IMG/VR virus record: IMGVR_UViG_3300020045_007296
Span: 1 to 29,537 of that record
Length of the DNA: 29,537 nt
Strand: one strand, 5' to 3'
DNA from: a virus
Lineage: Duplodnaviria > Caudoviricetes
The notes beneath the pieces are model-generated. The model did no database searches, had not been told where the DNA came from, and worked only from the letters and a program-made list of their open reading frames with translations. Position 1 is the stretch's first letter. Each line of letters begins with the position of its first letter. The translations under genes and the position numbers were made by a program. Of this stretch, positions 1,395-29,537 are shown one piece after another.

Positions 1395-1931
1395 TCATAA
1401 TTTCTTTTTGTCGAATATTTGCCCTATAATTTCAATCACTTCGCCCTTTTCATTTCTTATTGGCTCCATCCTGCACACTGCGTCTACTATTACCCCGGTT
1501 ATAATATGCTTAATCCTAATGTCTTTATTGTAGCTGGCAGGATGCTTAATCGCTTCTTCTACAATCTTTTCTATCCGTACCGCATCCTCATCCGGGATAG
1601 CCACCATGAACCGCATTCCCAATACACTTTGCAGATCGTTAAAGCCTGTCATTTCAAAGAAAGCCGGGTTTACAATATTGAATTCCATCTTTTCATTAAG
1701 CCTGAAAATAGGGTTCTTGTAAACTCTCAATACCGCATGTTGTACATTTTCAGATATTACAGCCTTAGATTTAAGCTCATCAATTTCTTTTTTTTGCTTT
1801 TCGTATTCCGCTGGCATATTGTACATTTTCTTTGCCCATTCAAAAGCTGGTTTTCTGTACTTTACTACAATCCACCCAACAACACCGGAAATTGCCCCCT
1901 TTGGTATAATGGTAGACCAATCAATAGCCAT
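1395..1931 (-). CDS. Membrane-anchored PAS-domain protein without output domain
   Basis: N-terminal hydrophobic segment (IIPKGAISGVVGWIVV), short coiled coil, then PAS core IFRLNEKMEFNIVNPAFFEMTGF...VLG...IPDED and PAC-like end PIRNEKGEVIEIIGQIFD. Confidence 0.85.
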   Translation of the reverse strand: MAIDWSTIIPKGAISGVVGWIVVKYRKPAFEWAKKMYNMPAEYEKQKKEIDELKSKAVISENVQHAVLRVYKNPIFRLNEKMEFNIVNPAFFEMTGFNDLQSVLGMRFMVAIPDEDAVRIEKIVEEAIKHPASYNKDIRIKHIITGVIVDAVCRMEPIRNEKGEVIEIIGQIFDKKKL

Positions 1932-2353: not shown

Positions 2354-4384
2354 TTAAGGAATTATTTTATACCCAAATATTTTATGTGTTTGGCCTACAC
2401 TAATAGTTCCATTTGCATAAAAAAGCATTGATGAAAAAGCGGGTATGTAGGTGCTGTTATTTCTAACGTTCCCGAGTGCATCTTTTTTACTGTACCCGCT
2501 AAAACTATACAATGCCGGCGCTGCTGTTGTATTACTCTGGAATGTGTGCGCCTCAGTACTCAGGTTAACACTGATTGCTTCCTTCGCACTGAATGCCTTA
2601 AAGGTTGTAAGGTCCATCGGTACGCCGTCAATAAATGTTCCACCGGCTGTTGCGTGATACCAATAATGAAATGGTTTTGTTGCATCTGTTCGGTAATAAT
2701 TAGAATCCAGATGGTTAAATATTGCCCGGAAATCAGTTTGGATATCCACCGTTACAGGGTCATTCAGTGAGCCGTTCCAGTAAAATATATTGTTGATTGT
2801 GCCGTAAACGATATTGTGCGTGATCGTATCATTTCGCATTAAAGGAGCACCGGGGAAACGCTGTAATTTAAACCCGCTGGCTGCATTATATATAACGTTT
2901 CCGCTAAACCTGCAGTTTGATATTTCATTTGCGAAAACCCCGCCGCCGGGAATGTTTACGATTGTATTATTTATTGCCTTTATATACTTACTTGCCCCAT
3001 CCCAATACAGCCCATGACAACTACCTTCATCTGCTGCATGGGCTGGCACACCGTAACCGGTGTTTATTCCGTCCGTTACTATATTACCGTCAACAAGGCG
3101 GTTTGTTTTTGTCACGTCTGCATAAGAATAAATACCCCCGCAATCCCCTTTTATCATCCCAAACTTTGTAACCCAATTATTTTTTATCAGTATATCATTC
3201 CCGTTGAATTTGATCCCATTGAAAGCTACTGAATCCACCCGGTTACCCTGAACTGTTGCCCCGTAATCGCTTCCTACTGAAATAGCATTATCCATATCAT
3301 CTGATGACCGTCCCATGCCTGCAAATAAGCCGATTTTGCTGACTGTGTTATTGAGTATAGTAGTGGTGCCGGTATTCATGTTTAACGCACTGATTCCGTC
3401 TGAAAGTGAGTTTGTGACTAAATTATTTTCAACCAAAAGGTTTGATATGAACCAAAAAAAGGAAGTTCGTTTATTATTATTCAGTTCGCAATTCTTCAGT
3501 GTTATATTGCTCCCGTCCTGGCTCCAAATTGCTACCTGGTTAGCGCCTTCAATCTTTACATTTTGGATGGTAATCCCACTTCGCGCTGTGTAACCGGTTC
3601 CGCCGCCTCCCAGCATGACCGGGTAATTAAGATTTGAATACTGGATAACTTTCGTGTTTGGATTTACTGCTCCAAAGTAAATAGATAGTCTTTTTGTAGC
3701 CTTATCAATAAACCATTCCCCGTATTGATCGAGTGTGCGAATGTCATCCTGAATAAAGTAACCATAATTTACGTTCCCAAGGTGGGGGGATGGGTTATCG
3801 TAAATGATTGTATTACCTGAGTGTGAAGTAATGCGGCCTGTATCAATTACCCAATCCCATTTGCGAATTACAACCTGGGCCCCGGTCCAGTTTGGGGTTC
3901 CTGAAAGCTGATTGTCTGTTATGGAAGGAGTTGCGGCGGTTGATTCATAAGTCCGATAACCGCCGTTTGCGCTGTCTACGTTTGGCGTCCGGCCAATTCT
4001 TTGCAATTCACCGTCGATCGTTACAATTTGCAACTGGCCAACGGCTTCTGCTGCATCTGCATACCATATTCCACCCCCGGCATTTGTCCATCCTGTTAGT
4101 GTTTTTAACCCTGAAATTGTTGGCAGATTTCCGGTGCTATAAGCATCAATGCCTATGTCGTTCCTGTTAGGGATAAACGCCTCATTCCACACCTCCCCAC
4201 GTTTTAAATAAATGGTATGGGTGCCTACCGGATAGCTAAAAGTATTCGCTTTATTGATTGTTTTCCATGCTGCACCGGTTGAAGTGCCTGCGTTGCCATC
4301 ATTGCCACCGGTAAAGTCCACGTAGTAGTCTGTCGCCCCGGATGTGGATGAAATCAAAAGTAATATGGTGAGTAGCTTTATCAT
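2354..4384 (-). CDS. Secreted right-handed parallel beta-helix (pectin-lyase-like) protein, putative depolymerase/tailspike
   Basis: Signal peptide MIKLLTILLLISSTSGA|T, N-terminal YYVD..GNDGNAGTS..AWKTI motif, repeated Asn-ladder strands (ITIQNVKI, LVENNLV, TVQGNRV, IKNNWV, VDGNIV). Confidence 0.8.
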   Translation of the reverse strand: MIKLLTILLLISSTSGATDYYVDFTGGNDGNAGTSTGAAWKTINKANTFSYPVGTHTIYLKRGEVWNEAFIPNRNDIGIDAYSTGNLPTISGLKTLTGWTNAGGGIWYADAAEAVGQLQIVTIDGELQRIGRTPNVDSANGGYRTYESTAATPSITDNQLSGTPNWTGAQVVIRKWDWVIDTGRITSHSGNTIIYDNPSPHLGNVNYGYFIQDDIRTLDQYGEWFIDKATKRLSIYFGAVNPNTKVIQYSNLNYPVMLGGGGTGYTARSGITIQNVKIEGANQVAIWSQDGSNITLKNCELNNNKRTSFFWFISNLLVENNLVTNSLSDGISALNMNTGTTTILNNTVSKIGLFAGMGRSSDDMDNAISVGSDYGATVQGNRVDSVAFNGIKFNGNDILIKNNWVTKFGMIKGDCGGIYSYADVTKTNRLVDGNIVTDGINTGYGVPAHAADEGSCHGLYWDGASKYIKAINNTIVNIPGGGVFANEISNCRFSGNVIYNAASGFKLQRFPGAPLMRNDTITHNIVYGTINNIFYWNGSLNDPVTVDIQTDFRAIFNHLDSNYYRTDATKPFHYWYHATAGGTFIDGVPMDLTTFKAFSAKEAISVNLSTEAHTFQSNTTAAPALYSFSGYSKKDALGNVRNNSTYIPAFSSMLFYANGTISVGQTHKIFGYKIIP

Positions 4385-6982: not shown

Positions 6983-9562
6983 TTAATTTATTACTGTCCA
7001 TTTGTTATTTAATCTAATTATCTGAGTAGAAACATTTGATAAGATTGTTGTAACGGTCGTTGTTTGATCGGCCAGGTAAACCGTTTCCCCGGAGAATGTC
7101 CACGCAAACCCTGTTTCGTTGTTAACGATTGTGATATAATTCCCGTTGGATGCCGTTGGCATTATAAAGTTTCTGCCTGTACTTAGTGTGGCCGCTGGCA
7201 AATAATTAACTGAGTTTGCAACTGCTGTCAAGTTTGCATTTGTGCCGGTTACATACGTTACCTTCTGATATAAATTACCCGATACATCCGTTAAGTCTCC
7301 ATTATTGGTTACGATCAATCGCTTGCTGCCATTTGTCCATATACTTGCCTCAGTACTACTTAGCTGAAAGGATTGTAGGTTTGTTGAAGGATCGGCAAAG
7401 TTTGATGCATATACATTGCCACTAAGCACGCCCAGGCCTCCCTGTATATTAATATTGCTTGCGGCACCTACTGAATTTAAAGACGAAATTGTTAAGCCAT
7501 CTGCACCGCCAAATTTTAATGTACCTTGGCCTGGGGTTTTTACTTCAAGTGCGTCTGTGGATGGGGTTACGTTTATGCCTACTTTATTTGCCGCATATTG
7601 AATTATACCATTACCAGTTGCGGTACCAACAAAAGCAGTTGTTGCAAGCTGAGTGCTATTGTCGCCCGCTATAGCTGTTGGCCCATAAACTTCCTCTTTA
7701 AAAATTGCATTGAATGCATTTGGGCTTGTAGAAATTAATCCTTTTGGTTTTAATTTGAAAGGCTGGTAATTGCCAATTGTATTGGCAACTATGCCTGTAA
7801 ATTTTGCAATACCAGTTGCATTCAGGTGTGTAGCATCTAAAAACACAGAAGCATCGATTCTTGGATCAAACTGTATGTCCTGGTCAACTACAAAATCATA
7901 TAATTCAGGATGATTTCTGATAGAATCATTGAGCGCTAACCTATAAGTTTCTTTTGGAGAGGTAAGTGTTGTAGAATGTATAATTGTAAAGGCGACAACC
8001 TTATACCCATCATTTCTGGACTGTCCCCATAAGTATTTTAAATTGGTAAAAACGCTGTCGGCTGTAATACCAGCCATAATATCATTGATACCAGCATAAA
8101 GGAAAAACCAGTAATCCTGCCCCTTTGCAGTAGGTTTTGCTGTGTGTGCCTCTGTGGCGTACTCTGTTTTCATTTGGGCGGTGGTTTCGCCCCCGACAGC
8201 GTAATTTTTTTGACTTGCCTTTGCAAAATAAGACAGCGAATCCGGTAGCAAATAAGGCCAATCATCCCCATCATTTGAATAGCTGTCACCCTCAACGATA
8301 TACCTTCTGTATTGAAAACTATCAACACTAAGCGCACCAACTACCCTTACCTCTGTATTGCCAATGCTGCCTATTTTTATTTGATTTGGTTTGTCATTAT
8401 CCTGGTTATTGCCTATAACAATGCTGTTGCTTCTATCTACATCTTTTGAAAGCGTAAATGAACCACTTCCGGCACCCGCTATTGTTGAAAGCGTTAAAGT
8501 GTTTGCAGATGCAATCGTAAACTGGTATATGGTTGCTGTTGTAAGCCCGGACAATGTTGTTCCTGAAATAACATCGTATTTTAAATTTACTTTTTGGCCT
8601 ATAGTTCCAAATCCGTGCGAAGTGATTGTAATTGTAGTACCGCTAACATCTGCCGATACAAATGATTTGACTGATCCAATTGTAAAAATATTACCGGCAT
8701 TGTTACCATAAGCTGAGCGATCTGTCCAGTTGTTGTTTTGCAAAACCAGGTAACCCAATCCGGATGAGTAAGGGCCAACATTGTTTTGAAGCACATAAGA
8801 TCCAAAACCATGACAGTTAATTCCGGTATTGTTTTGAAGTGCGTAATTGCCAAATCCGTTTGCAAAATTACCGGTGTTATTAAGCATTGTAAGGTAACCA
8901 AACCCATTTGAGTGCGACGCTGTATTATTAGCCAATACGCCATAACCGAGACCGGATGAAAAAGCCCCACTATTGTTTTGAAGTGCATAAGAGCCATACC
9001 CGTTTGCATAGGTAGCGGTATTGTTTTCTAAAGCGGATATTCCAAACCCGTTTGCATCACGGCCAGAGTTATTCCGTAAAGCATTTTCCCCGGCACCAAA
9101 ATTTGTTGCTGCTGAAAATGCACTTCCTGTCCAGTAGAACGGCTGGTCAGTTATCATATTCCTGCCTGCGATCTTTACAAACTTGCTTTGATTTTTTGCG
9201 GTGGTGGTTATCAGGTCAGGTGTAAAACTTGCCGCTGTTTGTAAGCTATCCCTTGTTTTTGTAAGCCCCCCTCTGCTTGCAAAACCGGTTGCATCAATTG
9301 AATCCGCTATGCCTAATTTAAGTGCCAATGCTGATAATCTTGCACGGTCATTTATTTCAGTTTGATAATTAGCTAACATAGTTGCTGTGTCTGACTTATT
9401 TAATTTACCTGAAATACTCGCTGTATTTGCGTTGATATCTGCCCGTAATGCTGTTGTGTCAACAGTAGTGCCGCCCCCGGCAAGTTTTACCAGCTTTACA
9501 ACCGGCTGAGCAGTTGCAGTTAATGAAAGAAAGATTGTAAGTATTGTTATGAGTTGTTTCAT
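6983..9562 (-). CDS. Tail-fibre-like protein with signal peptide, beta-solenoid repeats and SGNH/GDSL hydrolase domain
   Basis: Signal peptide ...LSLTATA|Q, 13-aa repeats (NGFGxxALxNNTG), SGNH blocks VEGDSY / AVGGET / AGIND / DATH, phage fibre motif PTAIAGDNSTQLATTAFV. Confidence 0.8.
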   Translation of the reverse strand: MKQLITILTIFLSLTATAQPVVKLVKLAGGGTTVDTTALRADINANTASISGKLNKSDTATMLANYQTEINDRARLSALALKLGIADSIDATGFASRGGLTKTRDSLQTAASFTPDLITTTAKNQSKFVKIAGRNMITDQPFYWTGSAFSAATNFGAGENALRNNSGRDANGFGISALENNTATYANGYGSYALQNNSGAFSSGLGYGVLANNTASHSNGFGYLTMLNNTGNFANGFGNYALQNNTGINCHGFGSYVLQNNVGPYSSGLGYLVLQNNNWTDRSAYGNNAGNIFTIGSVKSFVSADVSGTTITITSHGFGTIGQKVNLKYDVISGTTLSGLTTATIYQFTIASANTLTLSTIAGAGSGSFTLSKDVDRSNSIVIGNNQDNDKPNQIKIGSIGNTEVRVVGALSVDSFQYRRYIVEGDSYSNDGDDWPYLLPDSLSYFAKASQKNYAVGGETTAQMKTEYATEAHTAKPTAKGQDYWFFLYAGINDIMAGITADSVFTNLKYLWGQSRNDGYKVVAFTIIHSTTLTSPKETYRLALNDSIRNHPELYDFVVDQDIQFDPRIDASVFLDATHLNATGIAKFTGIVANTIGNYQPFKLKPKGLISTSPNAFNAIFKEEVYGPTAIAGDNSTQLATTAFVGTATGNGIIQYAANKVGINVTPSTDALEVKTPGQGTLKFGGADGLTISSLNSVGAASNINIQGGLGVLSGNVYASNFADPSTNLQSFQLSSTEASIWTNGSKRLIVTNNGDLTDVSGNLYQKVTYVTGTNANLTAVANSVNYLPAATLSTGRNFIMPTASNGNYITIVNNETGFAWTFSGETVYLADQTTTVTTILSNVSTQIIRLNNKWTVIN
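8690..9105 (-). repeat. Degenerate coding tandem repeat (~39-nt unit, 13 aa) in the fibre gene
   Basis: About 10 units of (N/S)G(F/Y/L)GxxxLxNNxx in the translation; boundaries approximate. Confidence 0.7.
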
Positions 9563-12574: not shown

Positions 12575-13522
12575 TTAAATAAGTGTTTTATCTGTGATAT
12601 GTACGATTTCGACTGGCTCCAAACTGAATAAATCTGTACCGATATTATAAGCGGTAACAATTCCAGGTGTTAACGGATTACCATCGTCGTTAAACTGAAT
12701 ACCGCTTTGATTAACTGCAGGCTGAACAGTTGTTGCCCATCCAAATTGCGGGAATCCTTTAACCCGGGTTGCTTCCCATTTTTCGCCAACCGGTTTTACA
12801 TAGGCTAAACCCGGATCGTTTAGGTCACGCCTGATGTTTACATAGTCACATGAAAAAATATGATTCAGGATTTTTACTATGTAATTTGGTACGCCGGGAG
12901 CTTCTCCAACAAATAATTTAAATGTATCGTAAGGTGTAGCACTTAAAATAGTGGTGTTAAAAATTTGGTCAACGTAGTCCTTACCTTCCATTTCAGGCTG
13001 ATAGTCAAGTAATGCGGACTCACAACGAAAATTAAACGTTACGCCCGTATTAAAATAAACGCCCAATATGTTTTTTGAATTCCGATAAGAAAATAGCATT
13101 GTGTTCTTGTGAAAAGCGGATACATGGATTTTTTCACTTACAAATTTTGCTGAGTAGCTTAATAGATTTGCTTCAAAATACAGGTGGTAAAATCCGGCTG
13201 TTATTGCGTCGAAATTTATATTGCACTCAAATAAATTTACTCCCAATGTTCCGCTGGTTCCTACTAATGTCCATGGGAAAGTTGCACCGATTACTTCTTT
13301 TCCTGCGCTGGTATAAATCTTTATTGGAGAAGGTGCCACAGTTGAAACTACCTGCAATGGTGTAGCGTCGCCGTATTGCCATTTTTGGGCATAACAAACT
13401 TTATACTGAAATACTTTTATCTGATTCACTGCAAAGTCATCATCTAAGTGAATTCCGGGTGTAGCGGTGTTCTTATACCACTTAATCGGGTTCATGAAAG
13501 CTATATCTGTAAAGTTTGCCAT
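12575..13522 (-). CDS. Minor tail protein
   Basis: 315 aa, second gene after the tape measure, TAATG-coupled. Confidence 0.65.
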   Translation of the reverse strand: MANFTDIAFMNPIKWYKNTATPGIHLDDDFAVNQIKVFQYKVCYAQKWQYGDATPLQVVSTVAPSPIKIYTSAGKEVIGATFPWTLVGTSGTLGVNLFECNINFDAITAGFYHLYFEANLLSYSAKFVSEKIHVSAFHKNTMLFSYRNSKNILGVYFNTGVTFNFRCESALLDYQPEMEGKDYVDQIFNTTILSATPYDTFKLFVGEAPGVPNYIVKILNHIFSCDYVNIRRDLNDPGLAYVKPVGEKWEATRVKGFPQFGWATTVQPAVNQSGIQFNDDGNPLTPGIVTAYNIGTDLFSLEPVEIVHITDKTLI

Positions 13523-15798
13523 TATATTAATTTGGTTAAATCGTTATCGGGTGCCAGTAATACCTTCCACCCCTGGCTGTCATCTGTTGCAGGGGCAAAT
13601 CCGCCATCCCATAGGTAAGCCGTTATTCTTAACCCCAGCCAGTAAAAAGCGATCTTGCTGTATGGGTTCGTTCTCATTATTGCAGGCAAGTCGATATCGA
13701 CTTTCGTTTTAAAAGATGCGTAGTAAGGAAGAAATAATTTTGCCGGCAAATTAAAAATTGGAATATCAGAATTTTCGGTTGTTGTTACTCCTCCCAGCGT
13801 CCGGGATAGTACACTATTCTTTTCGCCTGTCTGAAAAACTATTTTACCAATCCCTTTTGTATCTAAAACTGAATTGATATAAGCCCCGTTACCATCAAAA
13901 AAATGTGTAGGTGATAATTCTACATTAAAAGCCTGGTCCGGGAAAATAAGCCCTGTTATGCTTGAATAAGCAGGCCTATTTAGCTTGTAGTACTCTGCAT
14001 TGTAAACCGTGATACTTGTATTGTAAGAACCTGGCGTAATAACTCCGGTTATTCCTACATAAGAATAACCAACAATCAGAAAAGATATTGATAAAACGGT
14101 ATGCGTAACGCCTGAAATTGTTATTACCTGTCCGATATTCAGCAAAGTTTCTGTTGTCGGTATCTTCAAGAAGTAATTACCGGTATTTAATTCAGCAGTA
14201 AACCCCCCATTGTAAACACTGTATAAGGCACCTTTTGAAACATTTGCCTGAAAAGTATCATTATCAGACGAGCTATCTGTCGTATCCTTTCCGAATAATT
14301 TCAACCGGGTTAACTCAATCCCAAACATATCTGCTCTGTAAGGGCATATAAGGTCCAATTCTTTAACTACACGGGTTATTGGTGTGCTATATTGTTGAGT
14401 TACATTAAATTCATCCTTTCCGTTTACATTGTCATAGGTTTGATTCTGATAGCCGACCTTGATAGTGTTAATTACCAAGTCTTCAGCTAAAAATATTTCA
14501 CACTCGCTTACTTCGCCCAATTCAAAAGCAATATCATTCCTGAAAAAATATTCATGCTTTTCTATTATCAATTGATCGTTCTCAATTCCCATCCCTACAC
14601 CCCATCGCTGGCAGGCTTTAAAGAAATCTGAAAGGCTTGTTTTAAAAACTGACGGAGCACCATATTTTCGGATGGCCTGGCCTGATGTTAATAGCTGTGT
14701 TTCATCGAGCGAATCTAAAAAAGATGATTTAAACCCATATTTTCCGCCGGTTAATTTTTCGGTTATCTTTTCGCCTAATCTTTTCCATGTGAGGCATTCG
14801 CAAAGAGTTGTGTCAAAAGTTACATCATATTCCAGTTTAATAGACCCTGATTCAATTGTGTACCAAGTTGACCCGGTGCTTAAAAAAGGCGTCTCTGCCC
14901 TTACGTAAAGTTTATCTCCGTCGGTCATTGGAACAGTTATCGTTATATTTTGATCAATTAACTGTCCAGCTAAATAGCTTCCACTTATTATATTGTAGTT
15001 TGTAGTTGTTCCTGATAGTGACCTTTTTTGCATCCTGACCGTAACAAAACAGTCCAACTTAACAGCAACACGAATATTTATAACGAATGTTTGAGGTATA
15101 GTTTTGCTTATTACATTTGAAATCCATTTTTCATTTGGGAATGTATCAATAAAGTCAAAAGGCGAATCCTGCACAGCTACACCCTGGCTTGTGCCTTCCT
15201 GTGAAATAATTCCTAATCCGACATACTGATTTGACCCCTGTATGTTTTGATCCTCAAATACATTCCATTCCACTTTATTCCTAAAAGGCAACCCGTCCAA
15301 TGCTAAAATCTTTTTTTCTGCATCGTTATGGATATCAATTTCGTAGGTAGTAGCTTCATTTGATTTTAGGAGCTTGGTTAATCCGCCTTCCACCAACTGA
15401 ATATCAACACCATCAAGCGTTTGCTTGAACTTGCTAAAATCAAACTCCCCGGTGTACCAATTATAATAACGGTCAGGAAAATTGTTTTGATCGAGTTTTT
15501 GAATGGCTAAATAATAAACCGCTTCAATTCCTTTTTTCCACATGGCATCCCTTAAAATCAATGCTCCGTCTTTCACAAAATTTAACGGTATAGAGAAATC
15601 ACGAAACACCCCTAACCATTTATTATTTCGGGCATACTTAACCAGCGTTTCGTTCCATCCGTCGGGCGAATGCTTGAGGCTGGCACTTGATCCGTCCGTC
15701 TTTGTAGCACCTTCACCCGCTTCGACATGCCCCGAAACATTTTCGAATAGCGGCTTTTTATCGCTGTTTAATATAAAATATTTAAGAATCGGGTTCAT
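13522..15798 (-). CDS. Tail tip / hub-like protein
   Basis: 758 aa, directly downstream of the tape measure with a 1-nt overlap. Position and size are typical of a tail hub. Confidence 0.7.
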   Translation of the reverse strand: MNPILKYFILNSDKKPLFENVSGHVEAGEGATKTDGSSASLKHSPDGWNETLVKYARNNKWLGVFRDFSIPLNFVKDGALILRDAMWKKGIEAVYYLAIQKLDQNNFPDRYYNWYTGEFDFSKFKQTLDGVDIQLVEGGLTKLLKSNEATTYEIDIHNDAEKKILALDGLPFRNKVEWNVFEDQNIQGSNQYVGLGIISQEGTSQGVAVQDSPFDFIDTFPNEKWISNVISKTIPQTFVINIRVAVKLDCFVTVRMQKRSLSGTTTNYNIISGSYLAGQLIDQNITITVPMTDGDKLYVRAETPFLSTGSTWYTIESGSIKLEYDVTFDTTLCECLTWKRLGEKITEKLTGGKYGFKSSFLDSLDETQLLTSGQAIRKYGAPSVFKTSLSDFFKACQRWGVGMGIENDQLIIEKHEYFFRNDIAFELGEVSECEIFLAEDLVINTIKVGYQNQTYDNVNGKDEFNVTQQYSTPITRVVKELDLICPYRADMFGIELTRLKLFGKDTTDSSSDNDTFQANVSKGALYSVYNGGFTAELNTGNYFLKIPTTETLLNIGQVITISGVTHTVLSISFLIVGYSYVGITGVITPGSYNTSITVYNAEYYKLNRPAYSSITGLIFPDQAFNVELSPTHFFDGNGAYINSVLDTKGIGKIVFQTGEKNSVLSRTLGGVTTTENSDIPIFNLPAKLFLPYYASFKTKVDIDLPAIMRTNPYSKIAFYWLGLRITAYLWDGGFAPATDDSQGWKVLLAPDNDLTKLI

Positions 15799-18700
15799 TA
15801 ATTTTTAAAGTGTTGTTGATACCAGGCTGTTGTTTCTATTGCCCCGGTATTTTTAATTACAATTCTGCTTTTACGGTTTAAATCTTTCAACTCACCAAGC
15901 ATCTTACCCATTAAATGAGCATTTACGCCGTCAACTGTAATTGGCTGGTTGACATTCATTCCTGATAACCGCTGAAATCCTGTAGCCGCTAAAATATTGG
16001 CTGTTATGTCGGCAGGAAGAATCGTTTCTCCACCCATCAGATTTAAGAGCGACGGAACGCCTGGGGTTAAATATGGAGCCCCCTGTTTTGGAATTACTAG
16101 CTCACGCCCAATTTCACCACCAATGGCCGGGCCTTTTTTAGCGTCATTTGTACCGAGTGCGTATTTAGGCAAAGGTGTACTGATTGCCTTTGCCAGTTGT
16201 AAGGCCCCAATTGCCCCGGTAAGCGCAGCCAATCCGATGTTGGCAGGTGTATAAGGCTTCATACCCAATGCGGCCACAACGGCCTGCGCTGTGCTTGCTA
16301 TGATGCTTGCTATACTTGCCGCCTTTTCGAACTTTGCCCGTTCAACTGCAATGGCCCGTTTCCTTTTTTCAATCTGTTCAGTGTCAAATGCCGCCTGTTT
16401 TTCTACTAAGGCAACCGCTTTAACCCGTTCAACCTCGCTCAATCCGAGTTGGTTGATGTTGTTTATTTTACGTTTTGCTTCTTCATCGAGTACCCTTTGT
16501 TTTTCACCCAAGTCTTGCTCCTCACGTTTTAAATTATCGTCTAAAAACTGGAAAATCGTTGATTGCAATTCGGAATAAAGCTGCTTATAAAGCTCTTTTC
16601 TTTTTGCAGCCAGTGCTGCCTCTCTTGCCAGTTCATCAGCAAACTTTTTCTTTGAAATTTCTTCCTGCTCTTTTACATTTTTCTTTATTATTTCAAGTTG
16701 CAGATCGCCTAAAATCTTTGCTTGTGCCGCAGCTTTTGGCCCTGCTTCTTCTGTTAATTTAATCAGCCGGTCGTTTACCTCTTTTGCCAGGCGGATACGT
16801 TCATCATTAAATTTTGCTTCGACAACTAACCTTTCTTTTTCAGATTTACCCTTTTTCTCTTTTTCCTCACTACGATTAATTAGTGATAACCTTGCATTAT
16901 AAAAGTCAGATAATAGAATTAATCTGTTTGTAAACGAATCTTTATCATTTGCAAAATCTTCATTCAGTAAATCAATTTTTCTTTGCTGGTTAATTTTATA
17001 GATTTCAAATTCGGCATCAACATCTTCTTTTGCATATTTTGCCCGTGGTGATTTTGCGCCCCGTTCTTTACCGAGTAATAGATCAATCTCATCCTGTAAT
17101 TTTTTAATTTGAGCAACATTGGTTTTAATGTCTGCTTTACTCAATAAAGTTGGCTGTATCTTAGTTAGCTTTTCAATTTCATTTCTCAATTTCTGTATAA
17201 TGCCTAATTGTCCAGCGGCCCCAGCTCCATCAAAATTCGCTTTAAACTTATCTTTAAAAACAGATATAGAAGCATTGACTTTTAAACCAGCCTTTTTCAA
17301 TTCAGTATCAATGTTTTTTAAGGCCTGATCTATATCACTTTTAGGTATATCAAGATTAAACAAATCTGCTGTAAAATTTATCCTACCCAAAGAGGTTGAG
17401 TTGTCAAAAAATTTCCTTTGCTCCTCGCTAAGGTCGCCATAAGATGCTTTCCCGGTCTTTCCAAGTTCGACTAATGCTTGTCTTTGCGCTTGCAAGTTTG
17501 CCACGGCTTTGTTTGATTCTGCATTAACTGTTCCCGCTGCCTCTAGCTCTGCTTTCCTTTGCAGTGATCCAATATACGCATCCAGTATTTTGGTTCCCTC
17601 CGCTGTAGCTATATTTTCAAGCGTTAGTCCTTTTAGGTAGTTTGGGCTTATAGCAATAAGCTCTTTTAATGCCTCTTGTCTTGTAGACAAAGAGATATTG
17701 TTATCTCTTGCAACAGATGTCAAAGCCTCTACATTTGCCTTTTCTTTGCCATAAATTTCAACTGCTTTTTCATTCACCTCATTTAGCGCCCTTACCTTTT
17801 CCTTGCCATCACTTATAGACCTAAATAAATCAATAAAGCTTGATGCCAATGCAGATAATGGAGTTAACAATAATAATACTAATCCACCGAGCCCCATACC
17901 AGGAACAATATTGGCAATGTTCCTCATTACTGAAAATACGCTCTGAAACCCCCTTGTTAATTTCCCTGTTCCGCCTGCTGCAGATGACACCTCTTTTGAA
18001 ATATCATTAAGCGCCTTGGAGCCTGTTCCTACCTCTTTATTAAATGACTTAAATAAAGTGCTATTTGTTCCATATACTACCCCAATCTGTTTTGCGGCTT
18101 CTTTAAATGCAGACTGCTGTGTAGATGTAGATGTGAACTCTTTTCCTGTAGATGAAATTGCATTTTTCAGTGCCGTCTGCTTCATTGTTAATTCATCCAA
18201 TGTTTTACCAGAAGCACCGTTTGCTATTTTTGCATTTACGGAATCAAGTTCTTTATTTAGTGTTTTAAATGCCCCTGAAAATGCAGTTGGGTAATTACCA
18301 ATATTTATTTTTTGCTTTGATAGCTTATCGCTATTACTGTCTATTAATTCATTATTTCTATCAATTAGTGCATTCAGTTCGGCTATTTTTTCATTATCAT
18401 CTACATTCACCCTGCTAACCTGCCGCTTTAAAACAACATTTTGAGCTTGCGCCTCCCCGGTAGAATTAGGGGCATTTTTTGAAAACTCACTTAGTTTTGT
18501 TTGTTCTTTTATTTGTTTTGAAGTCTCAGAAATGCGGACTTTTAGTTTTTCTTGCTGCACCGCTGTTTCAAGTAACCTGTCTTTATATTCTTTTTGGTTT
18601 ATTATACCTTTCTTTAGCAATTCGGCATTATCCTTTTCCTCTGCTTTTACACTTGCCAAAGTATTTTGGTAACGGATTCGTGCCTGAATATTTTCTTCAA

Positions 18701-18989
18701 GTGATTTGTTTTGTTCTTTAGATGCGGCAATCCCTTGCTGACGAACAGCATTTAATTGTTTTTCAGCAGCAGATACAGTACTTGTTGATGAGACAATATT
18801 GTTTTGAGCTACAACAAATTCCTTTGCTTTATCGGTGTATTCTTTTAAGGAACTAATATCACCACCAATGGTTATTTTAGGAAAGTTCTTTACAGTGAGT
18901 GCCAGGCTAGAAAGTTCTTTGTTGACTATCCCAAATTGCTTTTCAAGAGCAGCTATATCTATTATCGAGCTTATTAAATCTTCTGCCAT
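15798..18989 (-). CDS. Tail tape measure protein
   Basis: 1063 aa, Ala/Lys/Glu-rich coiled coil, central hydrophobic segment (GMGLGGLVLLLLTPL), C-terminal GAIGALQLAKAISTPLPKYALG...GEIGRELV motif. Confidence 0.9.
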   Translation of the reverse strand: MAEDLISSIIDIAALEKQFGIVNKELSSLALTVKNFPKITIGGDISSLKEYTDKAKEFVVAQNNIVSSTSTVSAAEKQLNAVRQQGIAASKEQNKSLEENIQARIRYQNTLASVKAEEKDNAELLKKGIINQKEYKDRLLETAVQQEKLKVRISETSKQIKEQTKLSEFSKNAPNSTGEAQAQNVVLKRQVSRVNVDDNEKIAELNALIDRNNELIDSNSDKLSKQKINIGNYPTAFSGAFKTLNKELDSVNAKIANGASGKTLDELTMKQTALKNAISSTGKEFTSTSTQQSAFKEAAKQIGVVYGTNSTLFKSFNKEVGTGSKALNDISKEVSSAAGGTGKLTRGFQSVFSVMRNIANIVPGMGLGGLVLLLLTPLSALASSFIDLFRSISDGKEKVRALNEVNEKAVEIYGKEKANVEALTSVARDNNISLSTRQEALKELIAISPNYLKGLTLENIATAEGTKILDAYIGSLQRKAELEAAGTVNAESNKAVANLQAQRQALVELGKTGKASYGDLSEEQRKFFDNSTSLGRINFTADLFNLDIPKSDIDQALKNIDTELKKAGLKVNASISVFKDKFKANFDGAGAAGQLGIIQKLRNEIEKLTKIQPTLLSKADIKTNVAQIKKLQDEIDLLLGKERGAKSPRAKYAKEDVDAEFEIYKINQQRKIDLLNEDFANDKDSFTNRLILLSDFYNARLSLINRSEEKEKKGKSEKERLVVEAKFNDERIRLAKEVNDRLIKLTEEAGPKAAAQAKILGDLQLEIIKKNVKEQEEISKKKFADELAREAALAAKRKELYKQLYSELQSTIFQFLDDNLKREEQDLGEKQRVLDEEAKRKINNINQLGLSEVERVKAVALVEKQAAFDTEQIEKRKRAIAVERAKFEKAASIASIIASTAQAVVAALGMKPYTPANIGLAALTGAIGALQLAKAISTPLPKYALGTNDAKKGPAIGGEIGRELVIPKQGAPYLTPGVPSLLNLMGGETILPADITANILAATGFQRLSGMNVNQPITVDGVNAHLMGKMLGELKDLNRKSRIVIKNTGAIETTAWYQQHFKN

Positions 18990-27064: not shown

Positions 27065-27442
27065 TTATAAATTTACGGTTAATTCCTCTTTTGAAAGCCA
27101 GTAAACGATGTTTTGGAGTTCGTGAAGATATACAGGATGTATTAAAATCACCCCGCTATAGTCATGCTCAAAACCATATAATATAAAATCGTTTTGCTGC
27201 TTCCTAAAAACAAAATTATCTTTTACATACTCATTGTTAGGCTCTCGAACAAACCCACATTTTTCATAAATATCAGGGGTTAACGGTACTGGCTCCCAAA
27301 AATCAGCAACATCACTTTGGTTTTCATCAATCCAGAGTATTTGGTGAACTGATAGCGCTCTTGGTATCCTGGCTATCAGTTCACCATTTTTAGCCAAAAA
27401 ATTAAGTATATTTCCTTTCCTTAAATCACTTGCTGGTATCAT
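27065..27442 (-). CDS. Phage hypothetical protein (YopX-like small beta/alpha family)
   Basis: SDLRKGN...EPVPLTPDIYEKCGF...YLHELQN pattern, recalled from Bacteroidota phage accessory proteins; not verified by search. Confidence 0.65.
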   Translation of the reverse strand: MIPASDLRKGNILNFLAKNGELIARIPRALSVHQILWIDENQSDVADFWEPVPLTPDIYEKCGFVREPNNEYVKDNFVFRKQQNDFILYGFEHDYSGVILIHPVYLHELQNIVYWLSKEELTVNL

Positions 27443-27915
27443 TGCTCATCTTTTTTAAAATTTTCACTACAGGTTTCTGATTTATCTGAATTAAATATAA
27501 ACGGACTGTTATCCGTCATAGGGTCTTTAACCAACAAGGCAGCGAGTTTTTCAGGTGTCATGCGGTGCTCGAATTTGAATGACGGCAAATTACTTAACCC
27601 ATCAAACTGTTCCTTCCTAGTAACTTCATACATGCCATCAGGTCCGCAATTCGAACCTTTTATATAACTTGGGATAGGCTGCGACAGGATAACCCTGTTT
27701 TGAATTGAACAAATTGCTGCAGTAATTGCGGCCTGTCTAATCAATGATGCTCTTTTAGCCTTATTCCTTGGCCTCCTGTTGTATTCTTTTATAAATACGT
27801 TCTTTCTATGCTTGCCTTTGGGAAACTGCTTTGCAATGGCAGCAATAGCCTTACCTATGTTTATTGTATTGACTACAATTTCAAGCGCCTTTGATACCAT
27901 GCTGATGTGATTCAT
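27439..27915 (-). CDS. Accessory protein resembling the tape measure C-terminal motif
   Basis: Residues 62-94 align without gaps to this phage's tape measure C-terminal motif at 13/33 identities. Confidence 0.7.
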   Translation of the reverse strand: MNHISMVSKALEIVVNTINIGKAIAAIAKQFPKGKHRKNVFIKEYNRRPRNKAKRASLIRQAAITAAICSIQNRVILSQPIPSYIKGSNCGPDGMYEVTRKEQFDGLSNLPSFKFEHRMTPEKLAALLVKDPMTDNSPFIFNSDKSETCSENFKKDEQ

Positions 27916-28453: not shown

Positions 28454-29537
28454 TTAAATTGTATTAATAATTCCTTCGTTTTGCAAGAATTGAGCAATGT
28501 ATCGGGCAAGGTCAATCAGGTGGTTATTTAAATCCTCCGGCACTTCTAAGACAACCCCGTTACTATCTACCTTACGGGAGTAGTTTTCCTGCTCATTGCG
28601 GATGTTTTCGGAGGATGCGGTGAAATAAACTTTAATATTATCCAGTAGGTCAATACCGTCTATTATAGAACCTGGCCCTTTTACTGCCCCTTGTGCGTAT
28701 TCCCATCCGGCCTCACGCAATGCAAGTATCTTTAATGGCCGGTTGCTGTCACAAATTATATTTCTTTCGTAAGGAATCTGCAATTTTTTAAACATCCAAG
28801 TTACAATACCCTCGTCTGAAGCGTCTATTTCAGCACGCTCCGTGGTGGTAAGGTTCTTTCTTATTTCATTCTCACTGGTATAGTTGAGCTCATGAAGATA
28901 AAGCCCACCATCGTAATATTTAGCGTCCAAGATACCCCAAGGATGTTCTTTACCCCAGTCAGATCCTGAGTAAACCGGCACTTTGAGATCAAAATAAACG
29001 CTGTCCGGTATTTCTTCCCAATTAAATATCCTGTTTGGTCGTTCTGCTTTTAACCCAAGCCCGTAAACATTCCAGTTAAAATCGTTCGCTGAATTTTTAA
29101 ATTCGTTCTCCCGGCACCTGGCAAGCTCTGCTATTTCATTTGCATCAAAATTATCAGGATTGGCAACTAAATCGTATTGCCTTGCGTCTTGCTCTGTTAA
29201 TCTTTTATCCAGCACGATGGAGCAGAGCTTTACCGGCTGGTAAGAAAGTATTTTATTTTTTGATTCCTCCGGACAAAGGGGATTATCTAAAAAGGTGGAA
29301 TGAATTACTAAAGTTCGTGGGTCTTTTTCAAGATCGTCCGACCAATGCCCCTGTTTTGGGTTTAGGTCAATAAACAAAAAGTCTGCAGTTCTTTGGTCAA
29401 TCTGATTGAAAACCTCACGGGAGATATCATAAGGCTCGTTTAAGTGCGCTACATCCTGAGTAAGACCGTGAACGGTATTTTCATCGTCCGTACCATGAAT
29501 TTCGTATGTGCTGCCATTGGTATAGCTTAGGATTGAT
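28454..29537 (-). CDS. terL: Terminase large subunit, PBSX-like (5' end outside window)
   Basis: The frame stays open upstream of the track start: ...HGLTQDVAHLNEPY (Walker B-like)...FIDLNP (motif C), HSTFLDNP, VYGLG, nuclease GSDWG, CDS and NHLIDLARY. Confidence 0.92.
   Translation of the reverse strand, partial: SILSYTNGSTYEIHGTDDENTVHGLTQDVAHLNEPYDISREVFNQIDQRTADFLFIDLNPKQGHWSDDLEKDPRTLVIHSTFLDNPLCPEESKNKILSYQPVKLCSIVLDKRLTEQDARQYDLVANPDNFDANEIAELARCRENEFKNSANDFNWNVYGLGLKAERPNRIFNWEEIPDSVYFDLKVPVYSGSDWGKEHPWGILDAKYYDGGLYLHELNYTSENEIRKNLTTTERAEIDASDEGIVTWMFKKLQIPYERNIICDSNRPLKILALREAGWEYAQGAVKGPGSIIDGIDLLDNIKVYFTASSENIRNEQENYSRKVDSNGVVLEVPEDLNNHLIDLARYIAQFLQNEGIINTI

What the first reader, a model, noticed from the sequence alone, without database searches (positions are those of the whole stretch)
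27439..27915. Accessory gene resembling the C-terminus of the phage's own tape measure protein
Seen: AAITAAICSIQNRVILSQPIPSYIKGSNCGPDG (27732-27634) aligns without gaps to tape measure AALTGAIGALQLAKAISTPLPKYALGTNDAKKG (16229-16131) at 13/33 identities. The preceding helix KALEIVVNTINIGKAIAAI also parallels KAASIASIIASTAQAVVAA, with a very basic ~30-aa insert replacing the short turn. Known: tape measure C-termini engage the tail tip, and tail-assembly-blocking prophage proteins exist. Inference: a free tape-measure mimic could poison tail assembly of competing phages, decoy a host defence sensor or protease, or regulate the phage's own tail initiation.
Basis: partly seen in the sequence, partly recalled or inferred. 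Interest (0 to 1): 0.75.

Follow-up and report, generated by a model that had tools for sequence, protein, structure and literature searches.

The report
Free copy of tape-measure membrane junction
A small gene in this uncultured phage carries a real but diverged copy of a conserved piece of tail 'ruler' (tape-measure) proteins, the end of a predicted membrane helix plus the motif after it and not the tip-plugging end; other phages keep similar free copies, which likely act as decoys, but this is untested.

Summary
The 13/33 match is real (10 of 3000 shuffles reach it; a profile of relatives' tape measure proteins (TMPs) gives 20.3 bits against at most 12.6 for shuffles). It is not the C-terminus: it ends 110 residues before the TMP stop and covers the second helix of the hydrophobic hairpin plus the Q-x7-PxPxYxxG junction. 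The hairpin aligns with the T5 pb2 membrane helices; the tip-docked segments of T5 and monocin TMPs lie further downstream. The claimed first-helix parallel is not significant, and the own TMP ranks only 36th of 83, so it is TMP-family-like, not a demonstrable self-copy. The gene is a mosaic: residues 108-148 match an unrelated ORF of a sister phage (dN 0.20, dS 1.45). No full-length homologue was found, but a family of 16 short stand-alone proteins in other phages keeps the same junction behind a basic segment; membership of this gene is inconclusive, and it may be an independent capture. Most likely role: late-expressed decoy for a factor that binds this junction (0.3), untested. The scan has already noted free TMP copies on other DNA. 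New variant of a known kind; interest 0.5.

The parts
27439..27915 (-). 158-aa accessory gene (P0001), mosaic, co-directional with terL and portal
   Evidence: codon usage best in this frame; no Pfam, PHROG, PADLOC or NCBIfam hit
27832..27894 (-). Residues 8-28, hydrophobic helix-like stretch; likeness to TMP hairpin helix 1 not significant
   Evidence: hydropathy 1.48 over residues 10-28
27736..27831 (-). Residues 29-60, basic segment (net +12); Y45, N51, K52 fall in register with the stand-alone family's N-terminal motif, H is missing
   Evidence: 65 of 5000 within-segment shuffles reach the score
27622..27747 (-). Residues 57-98, TMP-derived module: hairpin helix 2 + Q72-x7-P80-I-P-x-Y84-x-x-G87 junction + degenerate first strand
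27472..27594 (-). Residues 108-148, module shared with a different 105-aa ORF (L003:2429-2746) at the same place in a sister phage
   Evidence: 29/41 aa identical, dN 0.20, dS 1.45; 77% DNA identity over 111 bases
15798..18989 (-). [quoted passage not shown]
   Evidence: PHROG 25337 and 18891
16179..16358 (-). TMP residues 878-937, predicted helical hairpin; family profile hits T5 pb2 1008-1071
16017..16178 (-). TMP residues 938-991: PxPxYxxG junction and predicted beta module, homologous to monocin FtbJ 486-560
27065..27442 (-). 125-aa neighbour (phrog_10066), start overlaps the stop of the accessory gene; its last 41 bases survive as a remnant in L003
27939..28313 (-). Two further small ORFs (62 and 60 aa) of the variable cassette between terL and portal
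   Evidence: most relatives have terL next to portal
13522..15798 (-). 758-aa virion protein after the TMP; hub by position only, not confirmed
   Evidence: phrog_15220

Best explanation
The gene is a mosaic accessory gene whose middle is a captured, diverged copy of the conserved hairpin-end junction of Bacteroidota tape measure proteins, and it likely works as a decoy, probably made late with the virion genes, that would soak up a host anti-phage factor recognising this junction. Shown: the homology, its place in the TMP, the mosaic structure, a parallel stand-alone family, intact own TMPs in the carriers checked. Inferred: late expression (same strand, between terL and portal, no promoter excess), that the junction is a recognised surface, and that the binder is a host defence protein.
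For: Homology. [quoted passage not shown] 16 short stand-alone proteins keep PxPxY (16 of 16) and the glutamate of the beta motif (15 of 16) while the helix has turned polar (mean hydropathy 0.02 against 1.35 in 82 TMPs) and the tails vary freely: the pattern of a soluble mimic. 3 of 3 carrier phages checked have their own TMP, so the copy is extra. A decoy would not harm the carrier, unlike a poison aimed at a motif that its own TMP bears. A defence that binds siphophage TMPs is described (SNIPE; passages, 10.1101/2025.11.03.685801), and phi80 encodes a counter-defence to its own tail-assembly blocker (passages, PMC11364771).
Against: No binder is identified. SNIPE acts at injection and maps to other TMP regions (residues 100-150 and 300-400 in the passages seen), which a late protein could not shield. 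This gene has no full-length homologue, lacks the beta-motif glutamate pattern, was not among the 16 hits of the family search, and its helix is still fairly hydrophobic (0.85). Selection was measured only for residues 108-148, not for the TMP-like part. Expression is not shown.
Confidence: 0.3

Rival explanations
1. Transient mosaic: a TMP fragment recombined into a fast-shuffling cassette and fused in frame to another small-gene module; translated, but with no function that depends on the TMP likeness.
For: Orphan as a whole; the cassette swaps short DNA pieces with a sister phage; the beta module is degenerate; an in-frame ATG at codon 95 precedes the shared module.
Against: Consensus positions Q, I, S, Q, P, I, P, Y, K, G are kept while DNA identity to the own TMP is 45/99; no close donor among 83 TMPs; the same junction is kept in 16 other stand-alone proteins.
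Confidence: 0.25
2. Competitive substrate or inhibitor of TMP maturation or tail assembly, aimed at co-infecting phages: the junction would be the TMP cleavage site and the free copy would occupy the processing activity or co-assemble with rival TMP.
For: T5 pb2 is cut after R1127 (PMC10038345); the best local match of the junction/beta profile in all of pb2 starts exactly at 1128, and in lambda gpH at F733, 120 residues from the end, near the ~14-kDa fragment. The gene matches foreign TMPs as well as or better than its own.
Against: Both matches are below significance (61 and 31 of 1000 shuffles reach the score); T5 was not hit by the beta profile in the PDB search; cleavage of Bacteroidota TMPs is not known from anything I read; a late inhibitor would also meet the phage's own TMP.
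Confidence: 0.2
3. Superinfection exclusion at the membrane: the protein sits at the inner membrane through its hydrophobic helices and basic segment and pairs with the hairpin of an incoming TMP, blocking the DNA channel.
For: The copied helix belongs to the hairpin proposed to form the T5 channel; residues 10-28 are hydrophobic; family members in L175-L177 lie in antisense cassettes that must be transcribed apart from the tail genes.
Against: Family helices are polar; here the gene is in the late-operon direction with 7 promoter-like sites against 8.3 expected; no integrase in the 35%-complete fragment was seen among the ORFs scanned.
Confidence: 0.12
4. One reading: a mimic that plugs the tail-tip hub, or a regulator of the phage's own tail initiation.
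For: In T5 the segment just after the hairpin binds the opened hub.
Against: That 1085-1127 anchor has no counterpart here, where the hairpin runs straight into the junction; tip-docked segments are the extreme C-termini; the gene is absent at this place in most relatives, so it is not needed for assembly.
Confidence: 0.1
5. Chance likeness to TMP.
For: Only 33-42 residues; a short motif alone can give about 21 bits on the stand-alone family profile.
Against: 20.3 bits on the TMP profile against 12.6 (shuffles) and 10.4 (motif-matched frames); hhalign 95%.
Confidence: 0.03

Closest known systems
Hydrophobic hairpin of T5 TMP pb2 (PDB 7ZHJ/7ZQP chains; residues 1008-1071) and DT57C TMP
   Same: The TMP family profile hits it (E 3e-4); the accessory gene copies the second helix.
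   Different: Free 42-residue piece in a 158-aa mosaic; no coiled coil, no 1085-1127 hub anchor, no tip-plug helix.
Listeria monocin TMP FtbJ 486-560
   Same: Same junction and beta module as the window's TMP (E 1.7e-8).
   Different: Part of a full TMP; the accessory gene keeps the junction and only a degenerate first strand.
Unnamed stand-alone family (L175, L176/P0023, L177, P0014-P0016, P0018-P0022, P0024-P0028)
   Same: Short protein, basic segment, helix, QPIPxYxKG; variable tail; sits in cassettes of small genes in the three loci seen.
   Different: Family has YYxIHxNK at the very N-terminus, a polar helix and the beta-motif glutamate; P0001 has an extra N-terminal helix, a more TMP-like helix and no clear beta motif.
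Tai / Ati and Tab tail-assembly interference (PMC11364771, passages)
   Same: Small phage-encoded proteins acting in conflicts over tail assembly.
   Different: Tai targets the central tail fibre or needle; nothing seen says it is TMP-derived; no homology found here.
SNIPE (10.1101/2025.11.03.685801, passages)
   Same: Shows that a host defence binds siphophage TMPs, the kind of factor a decoy would need.
   Different: Acts during injection and maps to other TMP regions; no TMP-mimic counter-defence in the passages read.

Membership tests
TMP C-terminal region (homology) | Hairpin helix 2 with Q(-8) and PxPx[YF]xxG | tested here: met
TMP C-terminal region (homology) | Hairpin helix 1 | tested here: inconclusive
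   0.4 and 1.2 bits, not above shuffles; aligned by hhalign
TMP C-terminal region (homology) | Beta module with G-E-x-G-x-E | tested here: not met
   match ends at residue 98
TMP tip-plug mimic | Likeness to the last 20-50 TMP residues | tested here: not met
   match ends at TMP 953 of 1063; plug segments
Tape measure protein (functional member) | Long coiled coil, place in the tail module | tested here: not met
   158 aa, between terL and portal
Stand-alone basic/PIPxY family (A4) | Helix + QPIPxYxKG in a short complete ORF | tested here: met
   score 21.9 is not above motif-matched unrelated frames (21.6)
Stand-alone basic/PIPxY family (A4) | N-terminal YYxIHxNK motif | tested here: inconclusive
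   3 of 4 invariant residues in register; 65 of 5000 and 338 of 5000 shuffles reach the scores
Stand-alone basic/PIPxY family (A4) | Beta-motif glutamate followed by hydrophobic residues (15 of 16 members) | tested here: not met
Stand-alone basic/PIPxY family (A4) | Polar helix before the motif (members -0.77 to 0.70) | tested here: not met
   0.85 in P0001
Known defence or anti-defence proteins | Profile match | tested here: inconclusive
   0 hits in PADLOC 2023 for 9 proteins and NCBIfam for 11; libraries may not hold Tai, Tab or Ati
Tai / Tab | Blocks tail assembly of other phages when expressed | not testable with these tools
   needs phage challenge

The most novel reading that the evidence does not exclude
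Bacteroidota phages have captured the tape-measure maturation junction at least twice as free mini-proteins that act as pseudo-substrates of the still unidentified activity that cuts TMPs, making them a new class of anti-competitor or anti-defence proteins and ready-made bait to catch that protease.
Probability: 0.13. Interest if true: 0.8.

Novelty: new variant of a known kind. Interest (0 to 1): 0.5.

Why it matters
If a free copy of this junction is kept by selection, something binds that junction outside the virion. That binder is either a host defence that senses tape measure proteins or the activity that cuts them; the Ur-lambda paper states that it is unknown how the cut is catalysed (PMC12617516, passages). 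The stand-alone proteins are small, likely soluble baits for finding it. The case is tempered because this gene is an orphan mosaic and the scan has noted free TMP pieces several times before.

Tried and rejected
Full-length homologues of P0001: only itself in the word-index protein search (37 and 2 candidates); 0 of 6 pattern hits in viral contigs; 4 weak Ralstonia phage hits at E 0.3; 1 of 99 metagenome pattern hits passed, rejected as a 9-residue coincidence at the end of an unrelated ORF. The alignment search gave 9 other short proteins, all reading as TMP C-terminal pieces. P0001 itself was never run as a query against the 1.84-billion library (that one job went to the L080 protein), so 'orphan' is limited to the searches named. 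Genome searches: 19 of 401 and 32 of 401 family-level genomes hit, all in frames of 306 aa or more; 3 of 401, 5 of 301 and 6 of 401 gave long frames or short chance frames, of which I inspected one and judged the others from length and stops; no stand-alone copy found in those searched. Motif scans: 1 stand-alone of 95, 0 of 120, 1 (the same) of 63. Dropped from the 16 hits: P0017 (repeat protein) and P0013 (51-aa cut-off near-copy of the query). ESM Atlas: no usable hit for either protein. Fold searches of the TMP model gave only generic hairpins; the 758-aa model (mean pLDDT 57) gave jelly-roll matches and no hub. The complex prediction with the 758-aa protein was not available; nothing was folded. 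Sequencing runs: none was listed. Promoter and terminator scans at chance level. No more relatives of the L003 ORF. Literature searches listed no paper on stand-alone TMP mimics; the library lacks most subscription papers. T5 Fig. S5G was seen only as a legend.

Full report
Setting. The window is a linear virus record of 29,537 bases, estimated 35% complete, with terminase, portal, capsid, tail and TMP genes all on the minus strand. The only portal relative found in species genomes is in a Ferruginibacter MAG, so a Bacteroidota (Chitinophagaceae-like) host is likely. The gene in question (P0001) is one of four small ORFs between terL and portal; most of the 24 related loci have terL next to portal, two have other small-gene cassettes there.

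Observation. The 13/33 ungapped match to TMP 921-953 is as described. It is modest alone (10 of 3000 shuffles; 2 of 500 against all 31 window proteins) and clear with profiles: 20.3 bits against a 25-sequence TMP profile lacking the own TMP, 0 of 5000 shuffles, maximum 12.6; hhalign 95%, E 2.8e-8 against 83 TMPs. Frames picked only for QPIPxYxKG reach at most 10.4 bits (58 of 63 frames), so the helix adds real signal. The first-helix parallel does not pass on its own. The own TMP is not the closest: rank 36 of 83, with the caveat that many of the others were fished with this gene's motif; DNA identity is 45/99.

Which part of the TMP. The AlphaFold model of TMP 877-1063 (mean pLDDT 82) has helices at 878-909 and 915-937, a small beta module at about 953-991, then helices. 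The gene copies the second helix and the PxPxYxxG junction. The family profile hits T5 pb2 1008-1071 (E 3e-4), which overlaps the hydrophobic stretch proposed as two transmembrane helices; the tip plug is the last 35 residues (10.1101/2022.09.20.507954, passages). The junction/beta profile hits monocin FtbJ 486-560 (E 1.7e-8), while the tip-resolved part is 573-622 (PMC11830787, passages). So this is not a tip-plug copy. T5 pb2 is cut after R1127 (PMC10038345, passages); the best match of my junction profile in pb2 begins at 1128, and in lambda gpH at 733, but neither score is significant (61 and 31 of 1000 shuffles). Lambda gpH loses about 14 kDa and the catalyst is stated to be unknown (PMC12617516, passages). 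The cleavage-site reading is therefore a lead only.

Mosaic. Residues 108-148 match a 105-aa ORF with different ends, the last gene before portal in the closest sister phage L003: 29/41 identical, dN 0.20, dS 1.45. L003 also keeps 41 bases of the neighbouring gene's end. Codon usage favours the annotated frame over both halves. The gene is probably real and translated, built by shuffling inside the cassette.

A parallel family. A motif scan of viral contigs gave 95 hits, 94 TMP-like and 1 short complete ORF (L080). It lies antisense among tail genes of a provirus and has two relatives in similar antisense cassettes; all three phages have their own TMP. Its search of 1.84 billion representatives gave 16 hits, 14 of them intact 73-196-aa proteins. 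The 16-member alignment has invariant Y, H, N, K near the N-terminus and PxPxY, matches the TMP profile at 97%, E 1e-10, and recovers long frames in Bacteroidota genomes (4 of 5 matches, one confirmed as TMP). The helix is polar (0.02 against 1.35) and the beta-motif glutamate is kept in 15 of 16. P0001 shares the plan (basic segment, helix, junction, private tail) but was not among the hits, its basic motif is only suggestive (65 of 5000), its family score is matched by unrelated motif-bearing terminases, and its helix is more TMP-like (0.85). It is either a distant member or, as I think somewhat more likely, an independent capture.

Mechanism. Shown: homology, position, mosaicism, the parallel family. 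Inferred: late co-expression and a binder. Because the carrier's own TMP bears the motif, a harmless decoy fits better than a poison; host defences that bind TMPs exist (SNIPE, passages), though at another stage and region. I put decoy at 0.30, transient mosaic 0.25, processing or assembly inhibitor 0.20, membrane exclusion 0.12, tip-hub mimic or own regulator 0.10, chance 0.03. Whether the protein binds the 758-aa protein stays open, and that protein's hub identity rests on position.

Novelty. Phage proteins that interfere with tail assembly are known (Tai, Ati, Tab; PMC11364771, passages), as are prophage mimics of host parts (PMC12952977, search listing only). Five searches listed no paper on free TMP pieces. 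Earlier notes of this scan report free copies of TMP tips, heads, cores and an internal helix on other DNA, unchecked by me; none was found by sequence for P0001 or P0016. The new element here is the hairpin-end junction and the unnamed family. Other papers: PMC10713586, passages. Verdict: new variant of a known kind, interest 0.5.

Noticed in passing
L175:5001-5387, L176:4995-5333, L177:4995-5300; P0014-P0016, P0018-P0028: Unnamed family of 73-196-aa phage proteins with YYxIHxNK, a polar helix, PxPxY and the TMP beta-motif glutamate; a cleaner case of a TMP-junction mimic than the window's gene.
   Followed up: partly
window 27065-27105 and 27478-27588 vs L003 2110-2150 and 2498-2608: The terL-portal cassettes of two sister phages share short DNA pieces from inside genes, pointing to intragenic shuffling.
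   Followed up: partly
window 28454-29536 vs L003, L004, L005: The loci with the closest portals (76%, 70%) have terminases only 35-36% identical, while loci with more distant portals have terminases up to 70% identical: terL has been swapped next to the cassette.
   Followed up: no
L010:5704-9333: A related phage carries a run of glycosyltransferase-like and methyltransferase-like ORFs between terL and portal (my reading of the translations; labels recalled, not scanned).
   Followed up: no
window 1395-1931 (-): PAS-domain protein (PF00989, PF08447 above cut-off) near the lysis genes.
   Followed up: no
window 6983-9562 (-) and 2354-4384 (-): Tail-region proteins with a GDSL esterase domain and a right-handed beta helix, possible capsule-modifying spikes.
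   Followed up: no
window 13522-15798 (-): The 758-aa protein has a predicted jelly-roll insertion at about residues 170-335 (TNF/C1q-like matches).
   Followed up: partly
L369 (T5 pb2 1128) and L370 (lambda gpH 733): The junction profile's best, non-significant match falls on the T5 cleavage site and suggests a place for the unmapped lambda gpH cut.
   Followed up: partly
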